Source: Prorocentrum cordatum (Eukaryota). From it: a DNA stretch of 64,000 nt. Each line of letters begins with the position of its first letter. Within the stretch, counting starts at the first letter, position 1. The stretch covers positions 310,001 to 374,000 of the forward strand of contig CAUYUJ010000192.1 in NCBI GenBank assembly GCA_963575745.1, read 5' to 3'. The notes below the pieces were generated by a model. It was given only the letters and a program-made list of their open reading frames with translations. It was not told the DNA's origin and did not search any database. Made by a program: the position numbers and the translations under genes. Positions 9,036-57,562 of the stretch are shown here, piece after piece.

Positions 9036-9523
9036 CCTGGCCCTCATCCCCCCAGAGACGCTCCTCGCCTGGCCTCCGAGCCAGACCTCGGGTCTCCCGG
9101 CGGCCGCCCCCGCGACGACCCGGGCACGCCCGGGCGCCGCTCGGCCAGGCGCAGCTGCTAGAGAGCACCGCCGCCGCTGGTGTGGGCGGGCGGGGAAATC
9201 AAAAAGAATGTAGGCGCCATCGCTGCGGGGCGGCCGCGCCCGCGCGGGCGGCGGCCGCCAAGCGCGCCCCCTCTCCGCGCCGCCCTGCAGCGAGGCTGGA
9301 ACGCCGCCGAAAACGGACGAGAACGGCAGAAAACCTTCGGACCTCCGAACTCGAGCCTCGAGTGCGAACCTTCGAGCATCGGACTCGAGCCGACCGAAAT
9401 TCGAACCTTCGAACCTTCGAACCTCGAGCGTGGCCCCGGACACCCGCGGCGCGAGGCCCGGGGGGCGTCCAGGAGGGGGGCTCGCGAACCGTGGCCCGGG
9501 GCACGTGCGCGGACTGGGGTGTG

Positions 9524-9713
9524 TGTGATAAGGATGGCGCGCGCGGCGCGGCAATCTCTGTCGTGTGAGAGCGCTGCTCGATCAAACTGCGCAGCTCTAA
9601 GGCCAAGGGCCCTATTCGAGAATAAACGGCGGCGGCAGGGTCTGGGCCGTTCTAGCCTTTCTGGGGAACGTCTTCGGGCATCTCTCTCTTCCTGGGAGTG
9701 AGCTTGAATCGCG
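9524..9713 (-). repeat. 3' LTR (degenerate, internally shorter)
   Basis: TGTGATAAGGATGGCGCG..GGCCCTATTCGAGAATAAACGGCGGCGGCA..GAGTGAGCTTGAATCGCG aligns with 16879-17122; adjacent CTCCTCC (9714-9720) reads GGAGGAG on the minus strand (short PPT). Confidence 0.85.
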
Positions 9714-9799
9714 CTCCTCCTAGTCGCCGCCTAGGGTGCCCGTAGCGGGGACTGAACACAAATCGCTCGCAGCTTCGTTCGGAGCAGAAAAGATTAGCC

Positions 9800-10600
9800 T
9801 TGATAGTCGAGGTAGCGGGAGTGCAAAAGAAAGGGACAACACTTTCCGCAACGCGTTCGCGAGCAAACAGGCTCGCACGGCTTGCGGAGCAAGCAGCCCA
9901 CGGGGCGATTTAACGGGTGCTCGCGCGCACCTGCAACACACATTCTCGTACAAACGGGCTCTCGGCTCGATATCCTTAATACTGGGCAGTAAGGTAGCAA
10001 TAAAATATGAAATTCGTGTGGTCGTCACCACTTCTGGAAAATCTGATCACGCTGAACGAAGCTTCTGCAATGCGGAGTTGCGTGTAGATCTGTGGCCAAG
10101 GGGGGAAAACTGAATGCAGACCTACGTAAACGGAGCCGCGTGTAAAGTCCCCACTGCAATGCGGACTTACGTGAACGGGGTCGCGACAGGCGACCGTCTG
10201 GCAACGGCGGCAGAACATTTACCGGCTCGAACGGTAAAACTGCCACCCAGGCACCGGGCGGCGCTCAGAGACCCTTTGTTGGAAGGTTTTGACGACGGGG
10301 TCTTGAGGTCTCTGCCTGTGATCTTCAACCGACGGCTCAGTCGGTCGTTCATCACTGGGCTCGCAAACATGGAAGGTCTGGATCACTCTCGCGGTAAAGG
10401 CGTACGAGCCATGATGAGTGCAACTTGCGCGTCTTGCAAGTAGTGTAGACGCTGCGTGTATATGCCCACATATGAAATCATGTCTGCATACCACGGGGCC
10501 TATCATCTCGTTCGGCGATGCTGTCGGCGAGGATCAAACGCGAAACCACGCCGGTCGATGATGAGCTCGAAACAGCGGCGATGCTTGGCGATGTGGGAGC
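9800..10600 (-). pseudogene. Highly decayed copia RT/RNase H remnant
   Basis: Minus strand TAT GCA GAC (at) GAT TTC ATA TGT GGG = frameshifted YADDFICG near 10466-10491, with GFAFDP upstream. Downstream AEASF, RLYENV and LLANALRK resemble RNase H DASF, SLYD and LADxLTK. Position fits, but similarity is weak. Confidence 0.45.
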
Positions 10601-12384
10601 TGATGCGCGGCTCGATCTGCGCCCCGGCGCCGGCGCTGACGCCGGCGCTGTCGGCGCGGCGTCGGATGTCGGCGGGTGCTGCGGCAGCGGGGGCTGCGCT
10701 GGATAATGTCCGAATGCGACTGCCGATCCCGATGCCGATGAACTCGGCGCCTGTGCGCAGCTGGGCCCATCCGAGGAGCGCGCGAAGAGGTCGCCGTCGT
10801 AGTCGCGCCCCTCGGGAAAGGCCGCTGGAATATTGCGGCGCCGGCCGAGGCGCCGCCCATCCCAGGCTGGGTTCTCGCCGTCGACCGCAGCCTTCGCCTC
10901 GGCAGAGCGCGGGCCAGACTCGATCGTGTTATTCTGTCTCATGATCGTGCAGGGTCACAAAAATGCCGAAGCCGATGGTGATTCCCGAGAACAGGATGGC
11001 CGCCATCAAGGATAAGTAGACGGTGTAGTCTGGCGTCGTCGTAGGTGTAGGCGCAGGCTGACTTTTACCTTGCCCAGGCAGGCAATCAGAGCCGGGGCGA
11101 GCGGGCGGGGGCATCCACCTCGACGGTTCGACGGCCGCGACGCAGGACAGCGACTCCTTGCCACCGGCGAGCCCCAACAGGTGGATCTGAAAACTGGCGT
11201 TGGGAGCGACTGGTCTGATCAGCGCGCTGGAAAGCGACGCCGTGGACCACTGCGTAGGAGTCGCCGGCTTCGCCGTCGCCCAAGTGAGCGACAAGGTCCC
11301 CCCGCTGGAGGAGGGGGCGGCGGCGAAGGCAGGCGCGGATCTTGTTGCTAGAATGTTGCCCATCGAGACCGCGGTGGATGGAGACAGGCGCCGCAATTTC
11401 AAGGGGGCCGCGAAGTGTCCAAGTGCGAAAAATGCAAAGACTTGGCCCACTCGCGGGCCGCGGACGGCCTCATGGCGCGAGCAGCTCATCGCCGAGCAAG
11501 ATCCGCATCCTCGGAGTCGTCATACGAGGTGGCGCCGCCAATGTGGACTGAGCGTGGCCGACATGGGGGTCGGAGACCACGGGTCGGCAACGCGCGTTCC
11601 GGGGCGTGCCATCTCGCACGACGAGCTCAACATCGCGGAACTGGTGTGCGCGGAGCTTTTGTCGCGCAAGGCCCCGCCCGCGCCGGCGCGACCAGTCGGC
11701 GCAGCATGCGCGCCCCTGCCGCGGAGGGCGCAGGCGCTGACACTGGCGCCATCGCGAGAGCAGGGTGTCTCTCGGACGAGTCCCTGAGGTTCAGGTTCAG
11801 GGGGTTGCTGAAGATCTGCGGGGGCTGCGTCGTCACCGTGGACAGCAGCAAGGTCGTCGGCAGCCAGAGCGGCAGCAGCGCCTGAGTCCAAGGCGGGCGC
11901 CGCAGGTGGCGGCTCCGCTGGCGGCTCCGCCAACAATTGCAGCGGCGGCTGCCCCCCGTCTCCTCCCGAAGGCGGCGGGGCCGGTCCTCCGCTGCCGCTG
12001 GCTTCTCCATTGGTTGTGAAATCGTCATCTCCTTATTTTCGCTGCATTTACTAAGCGAAATTGTGCGCGCGTCGGTTCGCTGCGCTGTTCTCTATGTTGC
12101 CAAATTTTTGCGCATGCGTGGCTGATGGCTGCGACTGCGCCGGCATCGCTGGCGGTGGAAGCTGCGCCTCGCTGCGAGGGCGATTCTGAGGCGCGGGACC
12201 TGGGAGATCGAAGAAAGTGCCCTCGGCGTCGCCCGGAGGTGCAGGTCCACCATGCCCTCCTCCGGGCCCACGCGGTGGATTTCCACCGCCTCCTCCGCCG
12301 CCTCCTCCGGGATCTGGTGGCGGCGCGTCTCCTGGCGGGCCGCCAGGAGGAGGCGCTGGCGGCTGTCTGCCGCGCGGCGCGTTC

Positions 12385-13430
12385 AGCGCATGGCCCCGCG
12401 GCACGAGCTCAGATGCCGCGGCGCGGCGCAGGTGTCCTCGATTGACCTTCGCGGTCGCAGGGCGATGGCTGACCCAGACGCTCGGGGCGCCCTCGAAACC
12501 GATGATAGCGCCGGGCCCATGCCACTGCAAAGCCTACTTTCGCTTGGGCTTGAAATTGCCCCCCCCAGTCGCCAGTCTGGTAGACGTCGCTGGCGCGCTG
12601 GGCTCCGTCTGCCCGGAAACGGGCCAGCAGCGCCCTCGAAAGGGAACGGTTGAACCTCAGCTGCTGGGCGGAGGTCTGAGCGGCCTTCGCGATGGCGATC
12701 CTCTCTGAGAACGGCTTGTCGGACACGATGCGCTCGCGCAGGGAAAGCCTGCCGGCGCTGTCCAGCTAGGGGGGCCGAAGGCCTCGTCCGAGCACCCATT
12801 GCGACGGCGAGTAGCCCGCCGTGGAATTAACCTGGCTGTTCATGGCCCAGCGCACGGAGGCAATCAGCCTCTGCACCTTGTGAGCGAACTCGGGCTGGTC
12901 GAGGCTGATGCTGAACTGGTCAGTCAGTTTCCTCGCGTGCACCTTCCACAGGCCTCCGCGTCGCTCCACGGTAGCGTTTTGCTGCGGCGCAGCCGCAGAG
13001 GTCGTCATCGAGCGGCAACCCATGTCCCCCAGCTCCATGAAAACTCTCGCTCGAACTCGCCTCCTCCATCAAAGATGCCGCGTTGAGGTGCGCCGAAGGG
13101 CGTGATCCAAATCTGTAGCGGCCGAGCGAATGCAGCTGGTGGGCGCCATGATGCGACTTCGCCGCACACCGTGGAACCCGAGGCCAGGTCGACCACGTTC
13201 AGGTAGACCAGCTGATTACCCGCGTAGTCGGCCAGTGTGAAGAGGTCCACTCCGATGGACTCGTTGGAACCCCTCTCCAGTCGGATCCTTCTTGGCAGGT
13301 GTGGTAGATGTCGTTAGTGTGCTGCACAGTCCATGGATCACTGTGACCCACCTGCAACGCGGATGGCTCGGGCAACGGCGTCGTTGGACGGGTGCCCTGT
13401 GTTTGCGTGGAGCTGCATCACGGCGGATCT
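12385..13430 (-). pseudogene. Retroviral-type integrase (zinc-finger start, DDE core, C-terminal domain), frameshifted
   Basis: LHANTGHPSND (~13380-13412); DLF..LNVVDLAS..WITPFGAP..DGGGEF; APQQNATVERRGG..GYSPSQWVLGR; WHGPGAIIGFEG..VWVSH..HLR. Confidence 0.85.
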
Positions 13431-13557
13431 GAGCGCCCGCTCCTCCGGGGCCGTGACCGCTGGTTCCTGGGCTGCTGCAGCGGCCGGAACCGTCCGTCTG
13501 CTTGCCCTCGTTGTCGTAGGATGTGCTGCGCGTAACGGGCCGGCAATTTGGTCGACG

Positions 13558-14208
13558 CAGTTGCGTGGCCAACGCCTTCGCGGGCTTGTTCGCGCAGTTC
13601 TCGCTGCTATTCGCGTCCTTGCCGCGAGCCTCTGTGTGGGGGTGCGATCTGTCGCAGAAGCTCCTTTGCGAGTCGTCGAATCCGCAATGGTCCGCGGTGA
13701 TCCTCCGCGACATCTTAATATGGGCCCCCTTCTTCATCTTGAGGTCGAACGCGTAGCCGTCGCAGTCTACGACTCGAGGGAGCTGCTCCTTCTGCCGCCT
13801 GGCGATCGCGTTCGTGTTGGAGCCCCATCCGTCGCAGCATCTCGGCCACTCAAACGAGACGGCGAGCTGGGCGCCGAACTCCTTGCGCAGCCGGGACATC
13901 GACTGCAAGAACAGGCCGATCATGAGCTTGGACTGGGCCCGGCCCCTCCTGAGCTGCGGGACCTCGCCCGGGTCGATCTCGACGACAAGGTGCTGTAGCG
14001 AGGTCCACGGCTGGCCAGGGAAGGCCGCGTGAACCCTCGTGCTCTCGCCGCCGGCAGGGTTCTTCCTGATCCTGTCCTCCAGCTCATTGACCGCGAACCG
14101 TCGTGAGAGGTCGTGGCCTGGAAGACTCCGTCTGGCAGCAGTTCCCCCACTCCTTCTCCAAGTGGCGCTGAGCTTGCTGTCCGGGCTGCAGCACCGCTCG
14201 TAAAGCAC
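13558..14208 (-). pseudogene. C5 DNA cytosine methyltransferase-like domain within pol
   Basis: In ORF 13216-14649, motifs occur in DNMT order: VLYERCCSPDS (I-like), HAAFPGQPW (IV, PC changed to PG), VSFEWP (VI), DGYAFDL..IKMSRRI (VIII-like), CDRSHPH..RG..SENC..AKAL (IX/X-like). Confidence 0.7.
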
Positions 14209-14859
14209 GGTGCTGTTCGATGCAGGTGAAGGGCTGGATCGGGTAGTGGACTTGGCCAGGCCAGCGTTCAATGCCTGGCTGACCTGGCGCGGCTGAATGC
14301 CACTCTTGCCGGTGACGGAAGCCGAACGATTTCCTGCGATCAGCTGCGGCTTCGCCCCCTTCTTGAGCGCCCCCGCGCGTGGCTGCTCCTCATCCGCGAT
14401 GTTGACCTCGTTCTGGTTGGTCAACTCGGCGTCGTAGCCCAGGGTCACGGGCGCGCCGGACACGCAGCCCGACCAGAAACCCGGGTGGCTGCAGGCGTCG
14501 CAGGCCTTCTCGCCGCAGGCGATACAGTCCTGCAGCGGCTCGGTGACGCACGCGGCGGGATAGGCGGTCTGCGGCAGCGTCGCCAGCGTGAGACTCGGTG
14601 ATGGAGTAGCGGTGGAGCAGCCAACCAGAGCTGAAGCCACGGCGGACATCAGCCGCGACCTTTTCGGGCGGCGAAGCTGAAGTCGCCTCGGGACGTTCAG
14701 CTCTGTCTTCGGGACGAGCCCTTTTGATCGCGTCGATCAGCGTGTCTGTCCTAGTCGTAGCGTTGACACTCGGCTCGCGGCAAGTCCCAGGTCGGTTGGC
14801 TGGCTTGCTTAGTCGCCCCATTCCAGCGTCCTTGATGGCCCGCCAGTCCTCCGGCTCAA

Positions 14860-15240
14860 GTCGGTCGCAGGGTGGCCCGCGCTCCTCGCAATGAGCTTCT
14901 GGGTTGAGTTCCCGATGCGAATCTTGCCCTTCCAAAGAGATATGTCGATCTTGGAAGGCAAGATGAAGCCCCGGCCGATGAGCAGGCCGAGCGCAGGGCT
15001 GTCCACGGCGCTAAACACGACGCGGCCAGCCTGGCCGCAGAGCGCCAGCGGCACGGCAACGCGCATCTCGCTCGGGGGCGCGCCCCCGCCGCCGAACCCG
15101 AAGGCCTCGTCCCCAGGCTCTTCGAGGACCTGGTCGCCAAGGCCCATCTTGGCAAGGGTGCCCTTGTAGTTCTCGCGCCACTTCACGCCCGCGACGCAGA
15201 AAAGGCAGGCCGCGCCCATCGCGCCGACGCCTTCGCCCAC
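14860..15240 (-). pseudogene. Retropepsin-like aspartic protease (catalytic Asp lost)
   Basis: GAMGAACLFCVAG..W (from DTAC), EAFGFGGG flap, VPLALCG, and GLLIGRGF (from LLIGRDF). Confidence 0.75.
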
Positions 15241-15879
15241 GGGCTCGTCGCCGTTGGCCGAGACGTTGACGGCAAGTCGTGGGCCAGCCGCTCTGAGACG
15301 CGCGCCTCTGGAGGCGGCGTCGCGGGCCCCTGCGGACGCAGGGCAATCTCCTCGTCCGCGAACTGGACCTGCTCGGTGATGCGAGCGCGGCTCCTCGTGC
15401 GACCTCTACGGCGCCCGCGCCCTCCGCCCTTGGACGCACCGTCGTTGGGCGCGAACTTGCGAGCCTGGCGCGGGGCGCTCTTTGTCCCCTGTTCAACGCC
15501 CGGTCCCGCAGCAACCCCAGCACTGCGACGTCTTCTTGCGCTGGTTGACCCGGCTATGCAGCTTCGCTGGGCGACGCGAGGGCGCGGGCATGCGCGACTT
15601 GCCGCGGCCTTTGAGGGCCCCCCGGGCCGATCAGATGGCGGCCGCGGCCTCGGGAATGGCAGCGAGCTCCGCCGCGGCGGCCCTGCTCTCGGCAGAATCG
15701 TCGCCGTCGAACAGCTCGGAGTCGCCCACGTTGGAGGAATCGAGCCTGGCGCGGCAAGCCTCGAGCACCTCGGGGGCCTTGCCCTCGTGGTCCTCCTCTG
15801 GTTCTTTGTCGTCGTCGGGCTCGTCGACGACGCCGGTGGAGCGCCCTCCACGGCTGGGGGGCCTCCACCTCGCCAGCCG

Positions 15880-16232
15880 CCTTGCTGGCGCGACCAGCCG
15901 GTCACGTCGTCCAGCGCGTTGAGGTCCACCTCGTTCTCGCGCAACTGCTGCAGACCGGTCTGGAAGCGGATGTACAAGTCCGTCATGCGTTCGCATGTGC
16001 GTCGGCATTGCTGAGCCGACTCGGAAAACTTCTCGAGGGAATCGCCCTTTTGCACGGGCTTCTGCTGACCCGAGCTCGCCTCCGAATGTTGCAGAACACT
16101 ATCGATGCCGACCTGGTTCCTATCGCGCTTCTTCTCGTCGGCGTCGTCTATGTTGGGATCGACAGCAGGATGTAGTTGCGCCTCCGTCGTAATTAATGCT
16201 GCACTCTTGGCCGTCCCTGCGAGCCTGAGCAC
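15880..16232 (-). pseudogene. gag remnant
   Basis: LRLAGTAKSAAL..GIDSVLQH..ERMTDLYIRF; lies between PBS and protease. Confidence 0.55.
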
Positions 16233-16294
16233 AGGTAGGTATGACTGAATGTCAAGAACTGGCGAAATTGCCCGTCATCTTGATAAGGAAGAGG

Positions 16295-16765
16295 ATGCTG
16301 GCGTCGCTGACGCTGGCGTATGAGACATAGTGGCTGGCGTCGCTGACGCTGGCCTTGGAAATGTAGTATGCCGCGTCGCTGACGCTGGCGTAGGAAATGT
16401 AGTGTGCGGCGTCGCCGACGCTGCTGACGCGAGGTTTATCGCAATGGGCGTCGTTGAAGACGCTGTCCTGCGAGAGAAAGAGAAAGAGAGAGAGAGAGAG
16501 AAAGAGAAAAACAAAAAAGAGAGCACTGAGGAAACAGCTGTCGCCAGATATATAAGAAGTGGGTAGGATGTGTAGTATGTGGCAGCGTCGCTGACGCTGC
16601 TGTTGGATATGTAGTAGCCGAAGGCGCAAACGCTGGCGTCGCAGGACGCTGGCGCTGGAGTTGGGAAGGTAGGCGTCGATGCTGGCGTCGCAGACGCTGA
16701 CCTTGGTGCTGGCGTCGTAGACGCTGGCGTTGGTGCTGGCGTCGCCGACGCTTACGTAGGCGCTG
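16295..16765. repeat. GCTGGCGTCGCTGAC-based tandem repeats with AG microsatellite inside the LTR element
   Basis: Recurrent gctggcgtcg(c/t)..gac units, ~42-bp period at 16297-16430. Confidence 0.8.
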
Positions 16766-16860
16766 ATCAGCAGCACGAGGAAGCCGCTGGGCTTCGATTC
16801 CGTCGGACGTGTCGCAAACGCCGTCGTGATATGCACGGCCCAAAGGCCGGGGCAGCGAGC

Positions 16861-16877
16861 AAAGCTCCCAGCTACCA
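16861..16877 (-). promoter_or_regulatory. Primer-binding site (probably tRNA-iMet)
   Basis: Minus strand TGGTAGCTGGGAGC begins 1 nt after the 5' LTR's terminal CA; TGGTAGC is complementary to the ..GCUACCA end of initiator tRNA-Met. Confidence 0.65.
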
Positions 16878-16878
16878 C

Positions 16879-17122
16879 TGTGATATGGATGGCGCGGGCG
16901 GCGCGGCAATCTGTGTCGTATGAGAGCGCTGCTCGATCAAATCGCGCAGGTCTAAGGCCAAAGGCCCTATTCGAGAATAAACGGCGGCGGCAAGGATACA
17001 TACAAACAAAGAGAGCAGACAGGGAGAGAAACACGGGTGCGCATCCTCTGGGCCTTTTTAAGTTTTCAGGGGGAACCTCTTCGGGCCTCTCTCTCTTTTC
17101 CCGGGAGTGAGCTTGAATCACA
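16879..17122 (-). repeat. 5' LTR (244 bp, TGTGAT..ATCACA)
   Basis: Canonical TG..CA ends with a 6-bp terminal inverted repeat. Confidence 0.9.
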
Positions 17123-17387: not shown

Positions 17388-18279
17388 ACCACGCTCGGTG
17401 AAAGAAGAAGGAGCCTCAATATCCACACGCACACCTACGGCAAGTTCGTGTCGTGCCGACTTCGGCGTCGGTTTCTGACAAAGCGGGGATCGTTTAACCT
17501 TGAACGACTGGCCCTTCCCGAAACACTAAGCCGTTCAGCATCGACCAGTTCTGGGTCGCGGGCGGCGTTCAGTGTTAAACGCCGGCAGCGGGGTCGCCGC
17601 CAGTCGACACGACGTGAACCTGGCGTAATCATTCGGGGGCGCACAAGCATGGATATTCATGTATTTGGCGCGCGGTCGCCAAATTCATGGATCGGGGGAG
17701 GTGCCCTCCCCAAAATGCAGCCGGTGCCTCCTCGCTCGGCGGCGGGAATCTGCGATTTCCCACGGAAACTCGACCCGTCGCCAATCCACGCCCCCTTGGT
17801 CCATGCTTGCGATCGCCCGAGTCATCACTCCCCTCCTACAAGCCTCGTCAAAAATAAACAGAAGACTTCTGAATTCGGTGATTGTGGGGTCAGCGCCACT
17901 CCAATGCTGACGGAATCCTGTTGACTCGGACACGGCGTTGTCCAAAAACCGACCCCACCCTCTCAGCATTGAAGAACGCGCTTCCTGACAAGTGCCCGGA
18001 AGTATCGTGCCCCAGGATTTCGACTTCCATTTCTGGATATTTTGACGAGGCTTGTAGGACGCCCCCGAGAAGCGCGGTGCGGAATCCGCGATTTCCCACG
18101 GAAACTGGACCCGTCGCCAATCCACGCCCCCTCGATCCATGTTTGCGATGGCCCGCCCATAGCAAAACCATCGAAGCCCAAGAAACCCAGGGCACCCTGG
18201 AGGCAGGCAGGGTGTTTCTTGGCGGGGGCCTCCACTGCATCGCCCCCCCCATTCCGCGACGCCCAACGCGTCGCCAATC

Positions 18280-18625
18280 TTGGGCGCCCGAGTTATCCGG
18301 GGTAACTCGGGTCCGGGGTAACGCGGGCTCGGATTCCCGAAAAACGAACCCGAGTTAGCCCTGACCCGAGTTACCCCTGATGATTTTGGGGCTCTGGACG
18401 CCCGAGTTATCCGGGTCAACTCGGGCCCGGGATACCTCGGGCTCGGATTCCCGAAAAACGAACCCGAGTTATCCCTGACCCGAGTTACCCCTGATGATTT
18501 TGGGGCTCTGGACGCCCGAGTTATCCGGGGTAACTCGGGCCCGGGGTAACTCGGGTTCGGATTCCCGAAAAAGCGAACCCGAGTTAGCCCTGACCCGAGC
18601 TACCCCTGATGATTCGGGGCTCTGA
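18280..18625. mobile_element. Family E element: 3 x 114-bp palindrome-rich units, 5-bp TSD CAATC
   Basis: Units start at 18281, 18395 and 18509; CCCGAGTTA/TAACTCGGG inverted motifs; CAATC at 18275-18279 and 18626-18630. Confidence 0.8.
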
Positions 18626-29924: not shown

Positions 29925-31672
29925 TCCTCCTGCTCCTCCCGCTCCTCCTGCTCCTCCTCCTCCTCCTCCTCCTCCTCCTCCTCCTCCTCCTCCTCCTCCT
30001 CCCCCTCCCCCTCCCCCTCCCCTCCTCCTCCTCCTCCTCCTCCTCCTCCTCCTCCTCCTCCTCCTCCTCCTCCTCCCCTCCTCACCCTTCTCCGCATGTG
30101 CCTCCGCCTCCTCCTCCTCCTCCTCCGCCTTCACCTCTTTCGCCTCCTCCTCATCATCCACCACCTCCTCAGCATCCTCTTCCTCCTCCTCCCCCGTCTC
30201 CGCCTCCTTCCCCTCCTCCACCTCCAACTCCGCCTACGCCATTGCCTCCGCCTCTCCCTTCACCTCCGCTCCTGCCTCCGTCTCCGCATCCACCTCCGCA
30301 TTTCCGAATACGTCTACGCCTCCACCTTCGCCTCCTCCTCTTTCCGCCTACTCCTCCTCTTTCTCGTCCTCTTTCTGTTCCTCCTCCTCCTCCTCCTCCG
30401 CCTCCTACTCCTTCTCCTCCGCCTCCACCTCCTCCAACTCTCCTGCTCCCTCCTCCTCCTTCCTCCTCCTCCTCTTCAACTTCCTCCTCCTCCTCCTGCC
30501 CCTTCTCTTCCTCCTCCTCCTCCTCCTCTTCCTCCTCCTCCTCCTCCTTCGACTCCTCCTCCTGCGCATCGTCCTCCGCCTCCTCTTCCTCGCCCTCATC
30601 CTTCTCCTCCCCTGCCTCCGCCCCCACCTCCAGCTATGCCTACGCCTCCACCTCCTCCTCCTCCTCCTCCTTCTCCTCCTCCTCCTCCTCCTCCTCCTTC
30701 TCATCCTTCTCCTTCTCCTCCTCCTCTTCCTCCTCCTCGTCCTCCTTTTCCTCCTCCTCCTCCTGCTCCTCCTTTTCATTCCCCTCTTCCTCCTCTTCTC
30801 GTAATCCTCCTTCTCCTCCTCCTTCTCCTCCTCCTCCTCCTTCGACTCCTCCTCCTCCTCCTCCTCTCCTCACCTCCTCCTCCTCCCCCTCCTACTCTCC
30901 TACTCCTCCCCCCTTCTCCTCCTCCTCCTCCTCCTTCTCCTCCTCCTCCGCCGCCTCCTCCTCCTCCTCCTCCTCCTCCGTATCCCCCTCATCCCCGCTC
31001 CTCCTCCTCCTCCTCCCGCCTCTGCCTCCGCCTCCGCTTCCGCATCAGCCCCCTTTTCCGCCTCCGCCTCCGCCTCCGCCTCCTCCTCCGCCTCCTCCTC
31101 CGCCTCCGCCTCCTTCTCCTCCTAATCCGTTTCCTCTTCCTACTCCTTTCCTCTTCCTCCTTCTTCCTCCTCCTCCTCCTCCTCCTCCTCCTCCTCCTCC
31201 TCCTCCTCCTCCTCCTCCTCCCCTCCTCCCCCCCCCCCCTCCTACCCCTCTTCTCCTCCTCCTCCTCCTCGTCCTTCTCCTACGCCTCCTCCACCTCCTC
31301 CTCCGCATCGTCCTCCGCCTCCTCTTCCTCGCCCTTATCCTTCTCCTCCCCTGCCTCCGCCCCCACCTCCGGCTATGCCTTTCTCCTCCTCCTTCTCCTC
31401 CTCCTCCTCCTCCTCCTCCTCCTCCTCCCTCTCCTCCTCCTCTTGCTCCCCCTCCTCTTGTTCCTCCTCCTCCTCCTCCTCCTCTTCCCCTCCTCCTCCT
31501 CCTCCTCCTCCTCCTCCTCCTCCTCCTCCTCCCCTCGTCTTCCTCCTCGTCCTTGTCCTCGTCCTCGTCCTCCTTCTCCTTCTCCTCCTCCTCCTCCTCC
31601 TCCTCCTCCTCCTCCTCCTCCTCCTCCTCCCCATGCCCTTCCTCCACCCCCCACTCCCCCTTGCCCCCCCCC
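29925..31672. repeat. 1.7-kb polypyrimidine (CCT)n low-complexity tract
   Basis: Almost purely C/T on the plus strand; internal duplication of ~30560-30640 at ~31295-31380. Confidence 0.95.
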
Positions 31673-32784
31673 CTTCGCGTCGAAGCGAGGGGTCAGCGGC
31701 CTCGGCCGCGGCGGTGCTGCCAGAGGGGGGCGCCGCCGAGGCCTCGCGATGCGGCGGCGGCGGGCGCTCCCAGGCGATGGCGCTCCCACTGTGCGGGGGG
31801 GGGTAAAAGGGAGGAGGCGGCGGGAGAAGGAGCGACAGCGGGAGGACGGGAGGATCACCACGAGGGAGAGGAAGAGGAGGAGGAGGAGGACGAGAAGGAG
31901 GAGGAGGAGGACCAGTGCAGGCTCAAGCCGCACCATCGATGTTGCAATACCCGCCCCCCACGTTCCCCCATTCAGAAATCGATGAAGGAAATTACCTGCA
32001 ACGCGGGAAATGGTCCATTAGAGGACAACCGTCTGATACTTCTCCAACATGCCAAGACACTATCATTGGGACTTCAATACTGCGAATCAACATGGCTGCT
32101 GCGCCGTGGCAATCCTAAATCGTACCAGAAGACTGATCCTGGGAACTCGGCAACACGGATCAACGTGACTGGTGCGCCGGGGAAACACTACACCGTGCCA
32201 GAGCACCAACTTCTGGGATTTCGCATGTACGAATCCTCGAATCTGTTGCACAATTGTCAGACGAATGTGCGCGGCGATAAGGCGAGAGCCACATTCTGAA
32301 AAGGAGCGACCATCCATTGGTGAAAGCGTTGCGAAGTAACAACGCGAAAGCGCGCGGCGCGAAAGCGAGAGCCACAACTTGAAAAGGAACGCTCTTGATC
32401 CTTGAACCTGCTGCGATCTTTTACGTCGAATGTGCGCGGCGCTAAGGCGATAACCACGTTTTGAAAAGGAACGGGCCCTCAATCCGTTAAACACTTCCGA
32501 ACAAACCCGCCCTCCATCCTTGACGATGTTGCGACTCGTGAAGACGAATATGCACGGCGCTGAAGCTAGAACCATGTTTTGAAAACCACCCGCTTTCTGT
32601 CAACAGAGCTCCTGCGAACTCCTAAGACAAGTGCGCGCGGTGCTGACGAGAGAACAGCACGTTGGAAACAACGCCCATGGTGAAAATGGCACACAGCAAA
32701 CTGTGTGTTGTGTTGTGTTTTTGTGTGTTGTTGTTGTGTTTGTTGTGTTTGTTTCACGTGTTGTGAGTGTTTGTTTTCCCACTG

Positions 32785-54780: not shown

Positions 54781-57562
54781 ATGCCGCCGGGGGTTTGCCG
54801 TCGCTCTCGATCGAGGCCCCGTCCTCCTCCTCATCCTCCTCCCTCTCCTCCCCCCCCCTTCCCCCCCCTTCCCCACCCCCTCCTGAGGGTTCGTCGGGGG
54901 CGAGATGCGTTGCGAGAGCTCCTCCATCGCGGACACGTGACCCAGCCGGGGCTCGCGAGGATGCTGCAGACGATTCGCGAGGTGGCGGCGGACTTACCCG
55001 CCGAGGTTTCGAATCGAAATCAACAGGACGAACGATGAACGGTTCGAGCGCGTCCGCCACGAGTTGAACATGCCGCTGGTGAGCGGCGCAAGCTGGAACT
55101 GGCCACTGGCGGAGCCCAACAAGCTACTCTTCATGATGGTACCAGAGAGCGGAGCGCTGCAAGAGTTGTTCGCGGCCGCGCTGCGGCGATGCGGTGCTCC
55201 GAGCCAGGGGCGCCCGTGGGCGCTGGTTATCGGGCATGATGAGTTCAGCCGCGGCGGCGTGTGCAACGTCGGCGACGGCAGGAAGAGCAGGGACTTATCG
55301 CTCGCGCCCCTGGAGCTTGGAGTGCGCGACGGCCGCAGTGGCAGCGCGCGATTCCCACCTGTGGTTGTTCGCCGCTGCTGGTTCAAGCAGGTCCAGGGCG
55401 GCTGGGGCGCCATGTTTGGCAAGTGCCTGAAGCTGCACCTGCTGTCTCCGACTGGCCTTGCGACGGCAGGCGCCCCTATCACTGTCTTCGGCGCGGACAT
55501 TCTCATCTTCGAACGCATCGAGTTCATGGTCGCCGATCTCGGTGGCCACCGCATGTCGTTGAACACCAACGGTGCCAACGGCTCCAGGCCGTGCTTGCGA
55601 CATTGCAACGCGCTCAAGAAAAACTCAGGCACGGCTGAGTTGGACCAAGCAAGGTTCGTTGAAGCTTCTTGTGCAGATCCGACGCGGTTCCGATTGCGCA
55701 CAAGTGCAGATGCGTTCGCTGCTGCCGATCTCGCCGGCGCGGCGCGCGCTCGGTGGACTGCAGGGGCAATGGCAAAAGACCGTTTCGAGAAACTGCACAT
55801 GACGTGCGGGCTCAAGTCCGCTCCCGGCGTCATCCTGCTGGACCCTGAATTGCGCCGCCATGTGGACGTAGTGGACAGCGCTGTCATCGACTGGGCCCGC
55901 ACGGCATTGCAAGATGGAGCATTCACCACAAGAAGTTGCCTTGCTGGCGCAGGCGTGCGCGGAAGAGCTGGACGTCAAATTCGATGGGCCCCCAAGAGCA
56001 CGGGCGGCTGCCCCCCTGCATGTGGGAAAACGAAATCGAAAGAGTTGCGCCACAGATTCGACGAACGCCGCGCCCCGAAGCAAGACCAGATACGGGCCTC
56101 TGCGTCGGAGGCCCTTGGCACGCATGCGCTTCTCAGGCGAACTGATCCTCCTCCTCCTCCTCCTCCTCCTCCTCTCTCCTCCCCTCCCCTCCTTTTACAC
56201 TTGCACAAATGTGAAAAGACTCTCCCACTTCCCCTGATGGCGTCCCGAAGATACCCGGGAAACGGGTTTTCGCCTGCGTTTTTGCAAAATGCTGCTCTCG
56301 CTGAGGCGCCGGCCTCATTTCTGCTCCCGAATCGTTCCGAATCGTGCTCCCGCTCGTGTTCCGAGGCGTGGGCCTCATTTTCGGATCGGTGTCTGGCCTC
56401 CGTCGTTCAAGATGGCGTTATCGCCCCAGCGCGGGCCTCTTTCTCGCGCGCCCATCCGCCCGCCACCACCGCGCCGCACCACCACCACCACCACCACCAC
56501 CACCACAACCAGCAGCAGCAACGCCACCACCACCAGCACCACCACCAGCACCAGCACCAGCACCAGCACCAGCACCACAACCACGCACACCCGCACGCAC
56601 GCACGCACGCACGCGCACCACCACCCACTACGCACGCGCGCGCGGGGCCACAGGTCCGCTACGACACGCGTCCGCGGATAGAGGAAATCAGCTCCATGGT
56701 AAGGGATGGGAGGGGTAGGACGTCAGATATGACGCGAGCGCACCTAGCTTGCCTCCTCCCCCTCCCCCTCCTCCTCCTCCTCCGCCCCCCTTCTCCCCCC
56801 CATCCCCCCCATCATCCTCCTCCGAGGCATTTCGTGGAGCTGTGCCTTCTCAGCGTGGCGCTCGGCAAGCAGGCGGCCTCGTCCCAACCTGCGCGCGCGA
56901 CGCTGGACTTGATATGCGCGGCAAAGCAAGGGCGCGTTGGCTCGCGCAAAGGGGCGGCGCAGTTGCGGCGAGCCCGCGCCGAGCACCTCCGACTGCGTAA
57001 AGAGACGCGCGGCACGGCGAACATCCTGCCGAATCACCACATGATGTTCGACGTGGCCGACCAGTGGGAACGCGAGGGGGAGACCAGCGCCGTTGTGATA
57101 GATGCATTTGTGGTCGAGCGGTTGCACATCAAGACGAAGTATTGCATGGACCCGACCGACAACACCAGGAATGTTGCAGTGTCATGCTTGGCGCATGCGA
57201 TTAATGTCCACCTGATGGCCTTGGAGGGCCGCGCGTTCGGCGATGGCCCCCTGGGGAGGACGTCGTTTCCTGATGGGGCGCGGGTGCCAAAAGCAGATCG
57301 AACGTCTGCCCCTGGCCTTGCCATCGAGGCTGGCGACATCTTTCTGCTCGAAGGAATTGCTGGCAGAGTGCGCGCCTGCGCCGTTGATGATGGCAGTCGC
57401 CTGGCATTAATGGAGACGTTCGAGCACGTGGTCAGGCTGTCCGCGCGCTCCGACCGATGGAAGGTTGGAGGCGCCATCCAGGCGTGGCGCGCGGGCGCCG
57501 TGCTCTCGGCGCCTGCGTGGTACACGCGCGGCGATGACGTCGCAGCTTTGCGCCTGGTATAG
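54781..57562 (+). pseudogene. CACTA/EnSpm(Plavaka)-like DDE transposase, decayed, with two GC-AG introns
   Basis: PWALVIGHDEF, MVADLGG..GANGSRPC..C, DWART (from DWxH), PNHHMMFD and DAFVVERLHIKTK are in the order expected for this family. Predicted introns 54816-54887 and 56137-56826 (splicing gives ..ALLRHFVE..). Frameshifts near 55035 and 55930-55990. Confidence 0.7.

What the first reader, a model, noticed from the sequence alone, without database searches (positions are those of the whole stretch)
9524..17122. LTR retrotransposon with a DNA cytosine methyltransferase-like domain between protease and integrase
Seen: paired LTRs (TGTGAT..ATCACA), iMet-type PBS, PPT and copia domain order, with ~215 extra codons (13558-14208) carrying DNMT-like motifs in the right order (ExCCSPDS, FP[G]xPW, FEWP, DG[Y]AF, CxxxHxH). 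Established: retrotransposons that have captured DNMT domains are described from Symbiodiniaceae dinoflagellates. Inference: this is such an element, with an atypical motif I (CCSPDS instead of FxGxG) and EWP instead of ENV/ENP, and the intact family could methylate its own cDNA. In this copy the catalytic Cys reads Gly (GGC at 14014-14016), so it is probably inactive.
Basis: partly seen in the sequence, partly recalled or inferred. Interest (0 to 1): 0.8.

Follow-up and report, generated by a model that had tools for sequence, protein, structure and literature searches.

The report
Retrotransposon relic with cryptic methyltransferase fold
A decayed jumping gene carries a dead copy of a compact domain shaped like a DNA cytosine methyltransferase, and that domain proves to be a standard, overlooked part of a widespread group of Copia-type retrotransposons in marine protists.

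Summary
The repeats and the motifs are real. Two LTR-like direct repeats (9524-9713 and 16879-17122, minus-strand element, about 84-92% identical, TG..CA ends) flank 7.2 kb.

The 215-codon segment (13582-14229, minus strand) belongs to a large protein family. It gave 196 representative clusters at E<=1e-3. In intact relatives it sits in one ORF with Copia-type RT (RVT_2), mostly in the order PR-X-IN-RT-RH.

The family conserves the PC cysteine (99/105) and the glutamate of an EWP motif (101/104). It lacks the glycine-rich SAM loop and a target-recognition domain.

The window copy is dead. Cys is replaced by Gly (GGC, 14014-14016), four more conserved residues are lost, the integrase is broken, and no RT, RNase H, protease or gag is detectable.

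It is not one of the published Symbiodinium DNMT elements. Those are LINE and DIRS elements with canonical DNMTs, and that paper says Copia lack a DNMT. Enzymatic activity is untested.

The parts
16879..17122 (-). 5' LTR (244 nt; TGTGAT...ATCACA; carries a 51-nt stretch absent from the other LTR)
16864..16877 (-). PBS-like site TGGTAGCTGGGAGC, one base after the LTR
   Evidence: Only the first 7 bases fit a tRNA 3' end. The tRNA identity is recalled, not tested.
16300..16765 (-). Leader region with 36-nt and 27-nt tandem repeats and a GA-rich run
15183..16274 (-). 363-codon open frame in the position of gag; identity not verified
   Evidence: no family and no look-alike found.
14809..15405 (-). 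198-codon open frame in the position of protease; not verified
   Evidence: Pfam finds none. BLASTP to P0045 gives E 0.75. The family protease profile gives a best E of 2.5, elsewhere in the element.
13216..14736 (-). 506-codon open frame that holds domain X. Its last ~115 codons are out of frame with the integrase.
13582..14229 (-). Domain X: a compact C5 cytosine methyltransferase-like fold (motif I-like ERCCSPDS, motif IV FPGQPW, motif VI-like FEWP, then DGY, then CxxxHxH)
14014..14016 (-). GGC (Gly) at the position of the family's PC cysteine
   Evidence: Further conserved residues lost: Tyr for Cys at 13753-13755, Asp for Gly at 13744-13746, Met for Lys at 13711-13713, Arg for Trp at 13705-13707.
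13227..13436 (-). Integrase N-terminal region (H..GH finger and the start of the DDE core, VDLFTLAD), interrupted by two in-frame stops
   Evidence: The family profile gives E 1.1e-10. It is 41% identical over 76 aa to the stretch after X in P0016, E 8e-10. The frame was read with X at stops.
12553..13032 (-). Integrase core and C-terminal pieces, in another frame
   Evidence: phmmer with P0108 residues 220-367 after X gives E 7e-4; tblastn gives E 0.004. Pfam rve is not found.
9714..12552 (-). 2.8 kb where RT and RNase H would be expected; nothing recognisable, partly Gly/Pro-rich low complexity
9714..9731 (-). Polypurine-like tract GGCGGCGACTAGGAGGAG (14 of 18 purines)
9524..9713 (-). 3' LTR (190 nt; start mutated, ends ATCACA)

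Best explanation
The region is an old, non-functional relic of an LTR retrotransposon. It belongs to a Copia-type lineage whose polyprotein carries, directly upstream of the integrase, a compact domain of about 215 residues (X).

X descends from, or has converged very closely on, the catalytic domain of C5 cytosine methyltransferases. Shown here:
- the fold;
- the colinear order of a motif I-like loop, a PC motif after a strand, and an E-W-P motif after the next strand;
- strong family-wide conservation of the Cys and the Glu;
- the in-frame position of X in intact polyproteins.

Inferred: in intact elements X attacks C6 of a pyrimidine with that Cys, as DNMTs do, and most likely transfers a methyl group to cytosine in the element's cDNA or at the integration site. 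It would do this without a target-recognition domain and with an unusual cofactor loop (E-x-C-C-x-x-x-S). Four conserved residues (Cys159, Cys192, His196, His198) probably hold a zinc ion where DNMTs have the TRD.

In the window copy X is dead. The Cys is Gly and four other conserved residues are lost. The integrase is broken by stops and frameshifts, and the RT/RNase H part is missing or replaced. The copy can neither move nor modify anything.
For: Family:
- Of 27 relatives scanned with Pfam, 5 carry RVT_2.
- P0045 is a single 2160-aa ORF holding a CCHC gag knuckle, an LLVDSGA protease motif, X, integrase, RT and RNase H.
- Among 169 proteins with X, 13 have a protease-like region upstream, 18 have integrase downstream and 2 have RNase H upstream.

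Fold:
- AlphaFold2 with 121 sequences gave pLDDT 91.7 and pTM 0.88.
- In Foldseek against the PDB, 37 of 39 listed rows are DNMT3A/3B/3C, Dnmt2 or DNMT1. The best is E 4.8e-4, probability 1.00, TM 0.42-0.48.
- In BFVD the best match is a 210-aa viral protein (TM 0.60/0.63, E 2.7e-6). Next is Lactococcus phage P087 'putative DNA methylase' (TM 0.56). Of the 50 rows, 17 are named cytosine or DNA methyltransferases.

Motifs:
- Conservation is Cys 99/105, Pro before it 94/105, Glu 101/104, Trp 99/105 and Pro 105/107 of EWP, Glu of ExCC 87/89, and C192/H196/H198 at 77/80, 63/73 and 70/76.
- hhalign of the X profile against 46 Dcm-like MTases aligns only PC motif on PC motif, score 24.9. None of 20 column shuffles reached it (10.6-21.8), and the reversed control scored 11.8.

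ESM Atlas: the nearest Pfam-bearing cluster is PF00145 (score 0.87). One same-family cluster is auto-named a cytosine-5 methyltransferase family protein.

Decay of this copy.
Against: - No sequence method reaches significance for DNMT. Pfam PF00145 matched 0 of 34 members at E<=1. The profile against PDB sequences found nothing relevant. hhalign probability was 4% with P 0.01.
- The SAM loop has no conserved glycine. Position 15 reads S 23, E 23, D 12, G 12 of 93.
- No TRD-sized insert exists.
- Residue-level superposition of Cys and Glu on the DNMT catalytic residues could not be checked, because no coordinates were available.
- CpG observed/expected is 1.12 in the element against 0.89 in the window. 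This is no trace of methylation-driven CpG loss.
- For the 'LTR retrotransposon' part, no RT, RNase H, protease or gag is detectable in this copy, and the target-site duplication is imperfect.
Confidence: 0.7

Rival explanations
1. X derives from a DNMT fold but does not methylate DNA. It could be a pseudo-enzyme or DNA-binding module that helps the integrase choose targets, in the way chromodomains do in chromoviruses. It could be an RNA (Dnmt2-like) methyltransferase acting on the element's RNA or tRNA primer. It could also use the Cys for a SAM-independent reaction on pyrimidines.
For: - The motif I loop lacks the glycines that normally form the SAM pocket, and there is no TRD.
- In most relatives X lies directly N-terminal to integrase: 18 proteins have integrase downstream of X.
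- An earlier, unchecked note of this scan (e1-2850094) describes a catalytically dead DNMT fold just before the integrase of a diatom gypsy element.
Against: - The Cys and Glu that matter only for catalysis are kept in 99/105 and 101/104 sequences. A purely structural module would not need them.
- In P0011 and P0042 X sits after RNase H at the end of Pol, away from integrase. It therefore works without being fused to integrase.
- DNMT3 scores above Dnmt2.
Confidence: 0.3
2. X is merely a Rossmann-like nucleotide-binding domain, for example dehydrogenase-like, and the DNMT resemblance is a generic fold match plus chance motifs.
For: - Pfam and hhalign are not significant.
Against: - Foldseek, which also uses residue states, lists DNMTs in 37 of 39 PDB rows and many viral cytosine methyltransferases.
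- DNMT matches align more residues (180-191) than dehydrogenases do (147-175).
- The invariant Cys and Glu follow consecutive strands with DNMT-like spacing: 58 residues from motif I to PC, and 55 from PC to E.
- The only hhalign local match is PC on PC, above all 20 shuffles.
- X has no TGxxxGxG or YxxxK of dehydrogenases.
Confidence: 0.08
3. The two repeats do not bound one retrotransposon. The X-integrase fragment is a leftover embedded in unrelated sequence, or the element is a recombinant or non-autonomous derivative whose RT part was replaced.
For: - No RT, RNase H, protease or gag is found between the repeats, although RT is normally the best conserved part.
- The target-site duplication matches only 3-4 of 5 bases.
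- The 3' LTR start is mutated.
Against: - The spacing fits a full element. There are 2.65 kb from the 5' LTR to X, against 571 aa before X in P0045. There are 2.8 kb from the integrase to the 3' LTR, against about 900 aa in P0045.
- The TG..CA ends, the TGGTAGC site next to one LTR and a purine-rich tract next to the other all lie in the orientation of the X-integrase frame.
Confidence: 0.25
4. One reading: the element is a member of the DNMT-bearing retrotransposon families described from Symbiodiniaceae.
For: Two relatives of X are annotated from the Symbiodiniaceae species Durusdinium trenchii (P0107, and P0132 by its accession series).
Against: - Those families are LINE and DIRS elements (plus a Klebsormidium Gypsy) with PF00145-detectable DNMTs. 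The same paper says Symbiodinium Copia lack a DNMT domain (PMC5890265, passages read).
- Relatives of X carry RVT_2, the Copia-type RT.
- PF00145 does not detect X.
Confidence: 0.03

Closest known systems
Retrotransposon-encoded DNMTs: SymbioLINE-Dnmt, SymbioDIRS-Dnmt3, KnitGypsy-Dnmt3 (de Mendoza et al. 2018, PMC5890265; outline and searched passages read)
   Same: A cytosine methyltransferase-type domain sits inside the Pol polyprotein of a retrotransposon of marine or freshwater algae. The proposed role is self-methylation of cDNA.
   Different: Those elements are LINE, DIRS and Gypsy, and their DNMTs are canonical: found with PF00145, all key residues kept, and de novo CG methylation shown experimentally. 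Here the carrier is Copia-type (RVT_2). The domain is about 215 aa, lacks a TRD and the glycine-rich loop, is invisible to PF00145, and has no activity data.
DNMT3A/DNMT3B catalytic domain (e.g. PDB 4u7t, 6u8p, 8tdr)
   Different: Sequence identity is about 10%. X is about 60 residues shorter. It has EWP in place of ENV, CC-x-P-D-S in place of the glycine loop, and a probable Cys/His metal site. No sequence-level homology is detectable.
Short (~210 aa) viral DNMT-like proteins, e.g. Lactococcus phage P087 orf15 'putative DNA methylase' (FJ429185)
   Same: Similar size and the highest TM-scores (0.56-0.63). The phage protein has an IENP...W motif that hhalign places on FEWP..C.GW of X. It is likewise only a sub-threshold PF00145 match (E 0.022, 14.6 bits against a cut-off of 22).
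   Different: These are stand-alone phage proteins, not part of a retroelement. The hhalign probability is only 0.9%. Their function is also untested as far as I could see.
CopiaMBD: arthropod Copia elements that captured a methyl-CpG-binding domain (PMC6673714; search listing and abstract only)
   Same: A Copia retrotransposon family that has fixed an extra domain from the DNA methylation machinery.
   Different: That domain is a reader (MBD), not a writer-like fold. The hosts and the position in the element also differ.
   Same: A DNMT-shaped domain missed by Pfam, lying immediately upstream of the integrase of an LTR retrotransposon of a marine protist.
   Different: That note reports none of the catalytic residues. 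Family X keeps the Cys and the Glu. The superfamily also differs (gypsy versus copia). Sequence relatedness was not tested, and a look-up by sequence found no look-alike window.

Membership tests
Ty1/Copia LTR retrotransposon | Pair of long terminal direct repeats ending TG...CA | tested here: met
   The repeats are 117 nt at 92% plus 73 nt at 84%, with a 51-nt indel. TGTGAT...ATCACA holds in the 5' LTR. The 3' LTR start is mutated.
Ty1/Copia LTR retrotransposon | 5-bp target-site duplication | tested here: inconclusive
   CCCCC versus CACAC, 3 of 5. It is 4 of 5 if the terminal CA repeat is counted into the LTR.
Ty1/Copia LTR retrotransposon | tRNA primer-binding site next to the 5' LTR and a polypurine tract next to the 3' LTR | tested here: inconclusive
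   TGGTAGC lies one base after the LTR. The purine tract has 14 of 18 purines. No host tRNA set is available, and the initiator-Met assignment is recalled.
Ty1/Copia LTR retrotransposon | Copia-type reverse transcriptase (Pfam RVT_2) and RNase H downstream of integrase | tested here: not met
   Not found in the window copy by Pfam on six frames, by tblastn or phmmer with relatives, or by family RT and RNase H profiles. It is met in relatives: RVT_2 in 5 of 27 scanned, and P0163 and P0175 carry it precomputed.
Ty1/Copia LTR retrotransposon | Integrase (HHCC finger plus DDE core) | tested here: inconclusive
   The N-terminal region matches the family profile at E 1.1e-10 and P0016 at E 8e-10. 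Core pieces are weak, E 7e-4. Pfam rve is not found, even in intact relatives.
Ty1/Copia LTR retrotransposon | gag and aspartic protease upstream | tested here: inconclusive
   No Pfam family, no match to the family protease profile or to P0045, and no Atlas look-alike for the gag-position ORF. Open frames of suitable size exist.
C5 cytosine DNA methyltransferase (Pfam PF00145) | Class I methyltransferase alpha/beta fold closest to solved C5-MTases | tested here: met
C5 cytosine DNA methyltransferase (Pfam PF00145) | Match to PF00145 at the curated threshold | tested here: not met
   No match for the window segment at E<=10, and none for 0 of 34 family members at E<=1.
C5 cytosine DNA methyltransferase (Pfam PF00145) | Motif I, the glycine-rich SAM-binding loop (FxGxG) | tested here: not met
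   The family consensus is E-x-C-C-x-x-x-S with no conserved glycine in the loop. The canonical motif wording is from established knowledge.
C5 cytosine DNA methyltransferase (Pfam PF00145) | Motif IV, Pro-Cys with the catalytic cysteine | tested here: met
   In the family, P is 94/105 and C is 99/105, following a strand. hhalign aligns it with the PC of Dcm-like enzymes. In the window copy it is not met, because the Cys is Gly.
C5 cytosine DNA methyltransferase (Pfam PF00145) | Motif VI, ENV, with the glutamate that contacts the target cytosine | tested here: inconclusive
   Glu is kept in 101/104 at the end of the next strand, but the motif reads E-W-P. Spatial equivalence could not be checked without coordinates.
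C5 cytosine DNA methyltransferase (Pfam PF00145) | Target-recognition domain between motifs VIII and IX, and motifs IX/X | tested here: inconclusive
   Only about 15 residues lie between the fifth and sixth strands, followed by a Cys/His-rich coil and two helices. The model still aligns across DNMT3A 628-905.
C5 cytosine DNA methyltransferase (Pfam PF00145) | SAM binding and methyl transfer to cytosine C5 | not testable with these tools
   Needs biochemistry or a co-structure.
Retrotransposon DNMTs of de Mendoza et al. 2018 | Carrier element is LINE, DIRS or Gypsy with a PF00145-detectable DNMT | tested here: not met
   Relatives carry RVT_2, the Copia RT. PF00145 is not detected. The paper's passages state that Copia lack a DNMT domain.

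The most novel reading that the evidence does not exclude
A large, overlooked clade of Copia retrotransposons of marine protists encodes an active, minimal C5 cytosine methyltransferase. The clade includes Symbiodiniaceae, where Copia were reported to lack any DNMT. The enzyme would be about 215 residues long, with no TRD, a Cys-Cys loop in place of the glycine-rich SAM loop, and a zinc site. It would mark the element's cDNA or its integration site. That would make it the smallest eukaryotic DNMT-type enzyme and a third, independent way for retroelements to carry their own DNA-modifying activity.
Probability: 0.3. Interest if true: 0.85.

Novelty: new variant of a known kind. Interest (0 to 1): 0.65.

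Why it matters
Retrotransposons that carry their own DNA methyltransferase are known from only a few lineages. In all of them the enzyme is canonical and easy to detect.

Here a domain that every standard sequence search misses turns out, by structure, to be DNMT-shaped, and it keeps the two residues that matter for catalysis. It is a regular part of a widespread Copia lineage: 196 clusters at 50% identity, including sequences from a dinoflagellate and from a Pyramimonas transcriptome.

If it is active, the view that the dominant Copia elements of Symbiodiniaceae are methyltransferase-free would need revising. It would also offer a minimal DNMT scaffold for studying how much of the enzyme is really needed.

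Either way, the question can be tested directly with one recombinant domain. The copy in this window is itself an ordinary dead relic.

Tried and rejected
Structure and sequence searches on X:
- The single-sequence fold of the segment failed (pLDDT 32.1).
- phmmer of the 506-aa ORF and the A2 profile against PDB sequences gave only chance hits, E >= 0.049 and >= 0.22.
- The word-indexed search for longer relatives with the 217-aa segment found none. The full HMMER search did find them.
- hhalign of A2 against E. coli Dcm alone gave probability 0.9%. It aligned PC on PC.
- hhalign against 46 Dcm-like phage MTases gave probability 4%.
- hhalign against phage P087 orf15 gave probability 0.9%.

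Searches that yielded little:
- The third word-indexed search, made with Dcm to get a diverse DNMT set, returned only close Dcm orthologues of 74% identity or more. I used IMG/VR loci instead.
- The genome search with PF00145 returned only the E. coli dcm locus.
- DNA-level relatives were not found. Metagenome contigs with the window's X and with P0303 gave none confirmed. Viral contigs with P0045 and with P087 orf15 gave none. The alignment A2 was not accepted as a query for lack of a conserved stretch.
- No whole genome is held for the window, so genomic copies could not be collected and no dN/dS could be computed.
- Sequencing runs: none was listed, and no RNA holder was listed.

Other parts of the element and window:
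- The ESM Atlas gave no usable hit for the gag-position ORF.
- A regex count of flanking motifs proved unreliable and was replaced by HMM-based counts.
- Rfam found no family in the window.
- Pfam on the 54 longest ORFs outside the element gave only a low-complexity Mucin match, so the host lineage stays unidentified.

Considered and rejected:
- A nested unrelated insertion, because X is in frame in relatives.
- A DNA transposon with a retroviral-type integrase, because of the LTR, PBS-like and PPT-like signals and the RVT_2 in relatives.

Literature: searches found no paper describing a DNMT-like domain in Copia elements. Subscription journals are not covered, and the supplements of PMC5890265 were not read.

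Full report
**What is in the sequence**

On the minus strand, two direct repeats flank 7.2 kb. They lie at 9524-9640 and 16879-16995 (117 nt, 92% identical) and continue at 9641-9710 and 17047-17119 (73 nt, 84%). One copy has a 51-nt stretch that the other lacks.

Read on the minus strand, the upstream repeat begins TGTGAT at 17122 and ends ATCACA at 16879. One base later comes TGGTAGCTGGGAGC. The downstream repeat ends ATCACA at 9524, but its first bases are changed. It is preceded by a tract with 14 of 18 purines. The flanking pentamers are CCCCC and CACAC, 3 of 5 identical, or 4 of 5 with another choice of the LTR end.

The LTR part of the observation therefore stands, for an old insertion. 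The PBS and PPT are plausible but weak. I could not check the initiator-Met assignment because no host tRNA set or genome is held.

**What is not there**

Pfam finds no family in any of the three minus-strand frames read through stops, in the three plus-strand frames, or in the separate ORFs.

tblastn with 18 long relatives hits only the 13528-14355 stretch at E<=1e-3. Permissive tblastn and phmmer add only weak integrase matches between 13469 and 12553.

I built profiles from the relatives' own domains. Those for protease (17 sequences), integrase core (10), RT (9) and RNase H (11) find nothing in the element. The integrase N-terminal profile (13 sequences) hits 13227-13436 at E 1.1e-10. That region is 41% identical over 76 residues to the stretch following the domain in P0016 (E 8e-10). 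It contains two in-frame stops.

The 2.8 kb where RT and RNase H should lie is unrecognisable.

**The extra segment is a real protein family**

A full HMMER search of 1.84 billion representatives, using 300 residues around the segment, gave 196 proteins at E<=1e-3, 41 at E<=1e-10 and 2 at E<=1e-30. Most cover query residues about 70-285, which is window 13582-14229.

Of 27 relatives scanned with Pfam, 5 carry RVT_2, the Copia-type RT. P0045 is one 2160-residue ORF with a CCHC knuckle, an LLVDSGA protease motif, the domain, an integrase, RT and RNase H.

- 13 have a protease-like region upstream;
- 18 have integrase downstream;
- 5 have RT further downstream;
- 2 (P0011, P0042) have the domain after RNase H at the end of Pol.

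The segment is thus a fixed, in-frame module of a Copia lineage and not a nested insertion. The named relatives are from a Pyramimonas sp. transcriptome (61-64% identity) and from Durusdinium trenchii. All other sources are unnamed metagenomes.

**What the domain is**

Sequence methods are silent:
- PF00145 matches 0 of 34 members.
- The family profile finds nothing relevant among PDB sequences.
- The single-sequence fold failed.

With an alignment of 121 sequences, AlphaFold2 gives a confident model (pLDDT 91.7, pTM 0.88). It shows alternating strands and helices.

Structural searches with this model:
- Foldseek against the PDB lists C5 cytosine methyltransferases in 37 of 39 rows: DNMT3A/3B/3C, S. 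pombe Dnmt2 and DNMT1. The best is E 4.8e-4, probability 1.00, TM 0.42-0.48.
- Against viral models, the best matches are proteins of the same small size: a 210-aa protein (TM 0.60/0.63, E 2.7e-6) and Lactococcus phage P087 'putative DNA methylase' (TM 0.56/0.59). Seventeen of the 50 rows are named cytosine or DNA methyltransferases.
- The ESM Atlas points the same way, weakly.

**Motifs tip the balance**

Across the 121-row alignment:

| Residue | Conservation |
|---|---|
| Pro, then Cys, after the third strand | 94/105, 99/105 |
| Glu-Trp-Pro after the next strand | 101/104, 99/105, 105/107 |
| Glu of the first-strand motif E-x-C-C-x-x-x-S | 87/89 |

The spacings (58 residues from the first motif to PC, and 55 from PC to E) are in the range I recall for DNMTs.

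hhalign of the family profile against 46 Dcm-like methyltransferases gives only one local alignment, PC motif on PC motif, with score 24.9. Twenty column-shuffled controls scored 10.6-21.8, and the reversed alignment scored 11.8. This is specific but not significant by HH-suite's own measure (probability 4%).

Against the phage P087 protein, hhalign places FEWP..C.GW on IENP....W. That phage protein is itself only a sub-threshold PF00145 match.

Features that do not fit a canonical enzyme:
- There is no conserved glycine in the cofactor loop.
- There is no TRD-sized insert.
- There is an extra set of conserved Cys/His residues (C159 at 89/92, C192 at 77/80, H196 at 63/73, H198 at 70/76). By inference, I read this set as a metal site.

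**This copy**

Four more conserved positions are also lost: C159Y, G162D, K173M and W175R. With the broken integrase and the missing RT, the copy is dead.

CpG observed/expected is 1.12 in the element against 0.89 for the window. There is thus no sign of methylation-driven CpG decay.

**Comparison with what is known**

I read the outline and searched passages of de Mendoza et al. 2018 (PMC5890265). There the Symbiodinium elements with DNMTs are a LINE family and DIRS families, and the Klebsormidium one is a Gypsy. All were found with PF00145 and all keep the key residues. The paper states that the most abundant Symbiodinium retrotransposons, the Copia superfamily, lack any DNMT domain.

Passages of Chen et al. 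2017 (PMC5776459) describe Symbiodinium Copia elements with RT, integrase and RNase H only.

Five literature searches found no description of a DNMT-like domain in Copia elements. The library does not hold most subscription journals, and I did not open the supplements.

An earlier, unchecked note of this scan (e1-2850094) reports a catalytically dead DNMT fold just upstream of the integrase of a diatom gypsy element. I did not test any relation to it.

**Verdict**

The filing under the published Symbiodiniaceae elements is wrong, and the retrotransposon in the window is an RT-less relic.

The family-level finding is new as far as I could search, and it is directly testable: a compact, TRD-less, Pfam-invisible DNMT fold with conserved Cys and Glu, built into Copia polyproteins. 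Whether it transfers methyl groups is open. I put that at about one in three.

Noticed in passing
P0011 and P0042 (relatives, not in the window): In these two proteins the DNMT-like domain follows RT-RNase H at the very end of Pol, instead of lying between protease and integrase. The module has therefore moved within Copia polyproteins.
   Followed up: partly
window 29925-31630: A 1.7-kb (TCC)n microsatellite of about 571 copies. It explains the extreme GC and AT skew of 30001-32000 and the long open frames there.
   Followed up: yes
window 18281-18576: A tRNA-Pro(CGG)-like gene at 18495-18576 directly follows a 114-nt tandem repeat at 18281-18500. A 75-nt direct repeat lies at 17745-17819 and 18081-18155. 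This may be a tRNA-derived repeat family just outside the element.
   Followed up: no
window 54941-57559 (+): An 873-codon open frame with no Pfam family, containing His/Gln-rich and Pro-rich runs. Its nature is unknown.
   Followed up: no
whole window: None of the 54 longest open frames outside the element matches a Pfam family, apart from one low-complexity Mucin hit. Rfam finds nothing. The window looks gene-poor or repeat-rich, and its host could not be named.
   Followed up: partly
window 16300-16765: 36-nt and 27-nt tandem repeats and a GA-rich run lie between the PBS-like site and the first long open frame of the element.
   Followed up: no
window 9400-9424: A perfect (TTCGAACC)3 repeat lies about 100 bases outside the 3' LTR.
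   Followed up: no
L083:11474-12109 (Lactococcus phage P087 orf15): This 212-aa 'putative DNA methylase' reaches only 14.6 bits on PF00145 (cut-off 22). It is nevertheless one of the best structural matches of the domain. Small DNMT-like proteins of phages may be an under-described group.
   Followed up: partly
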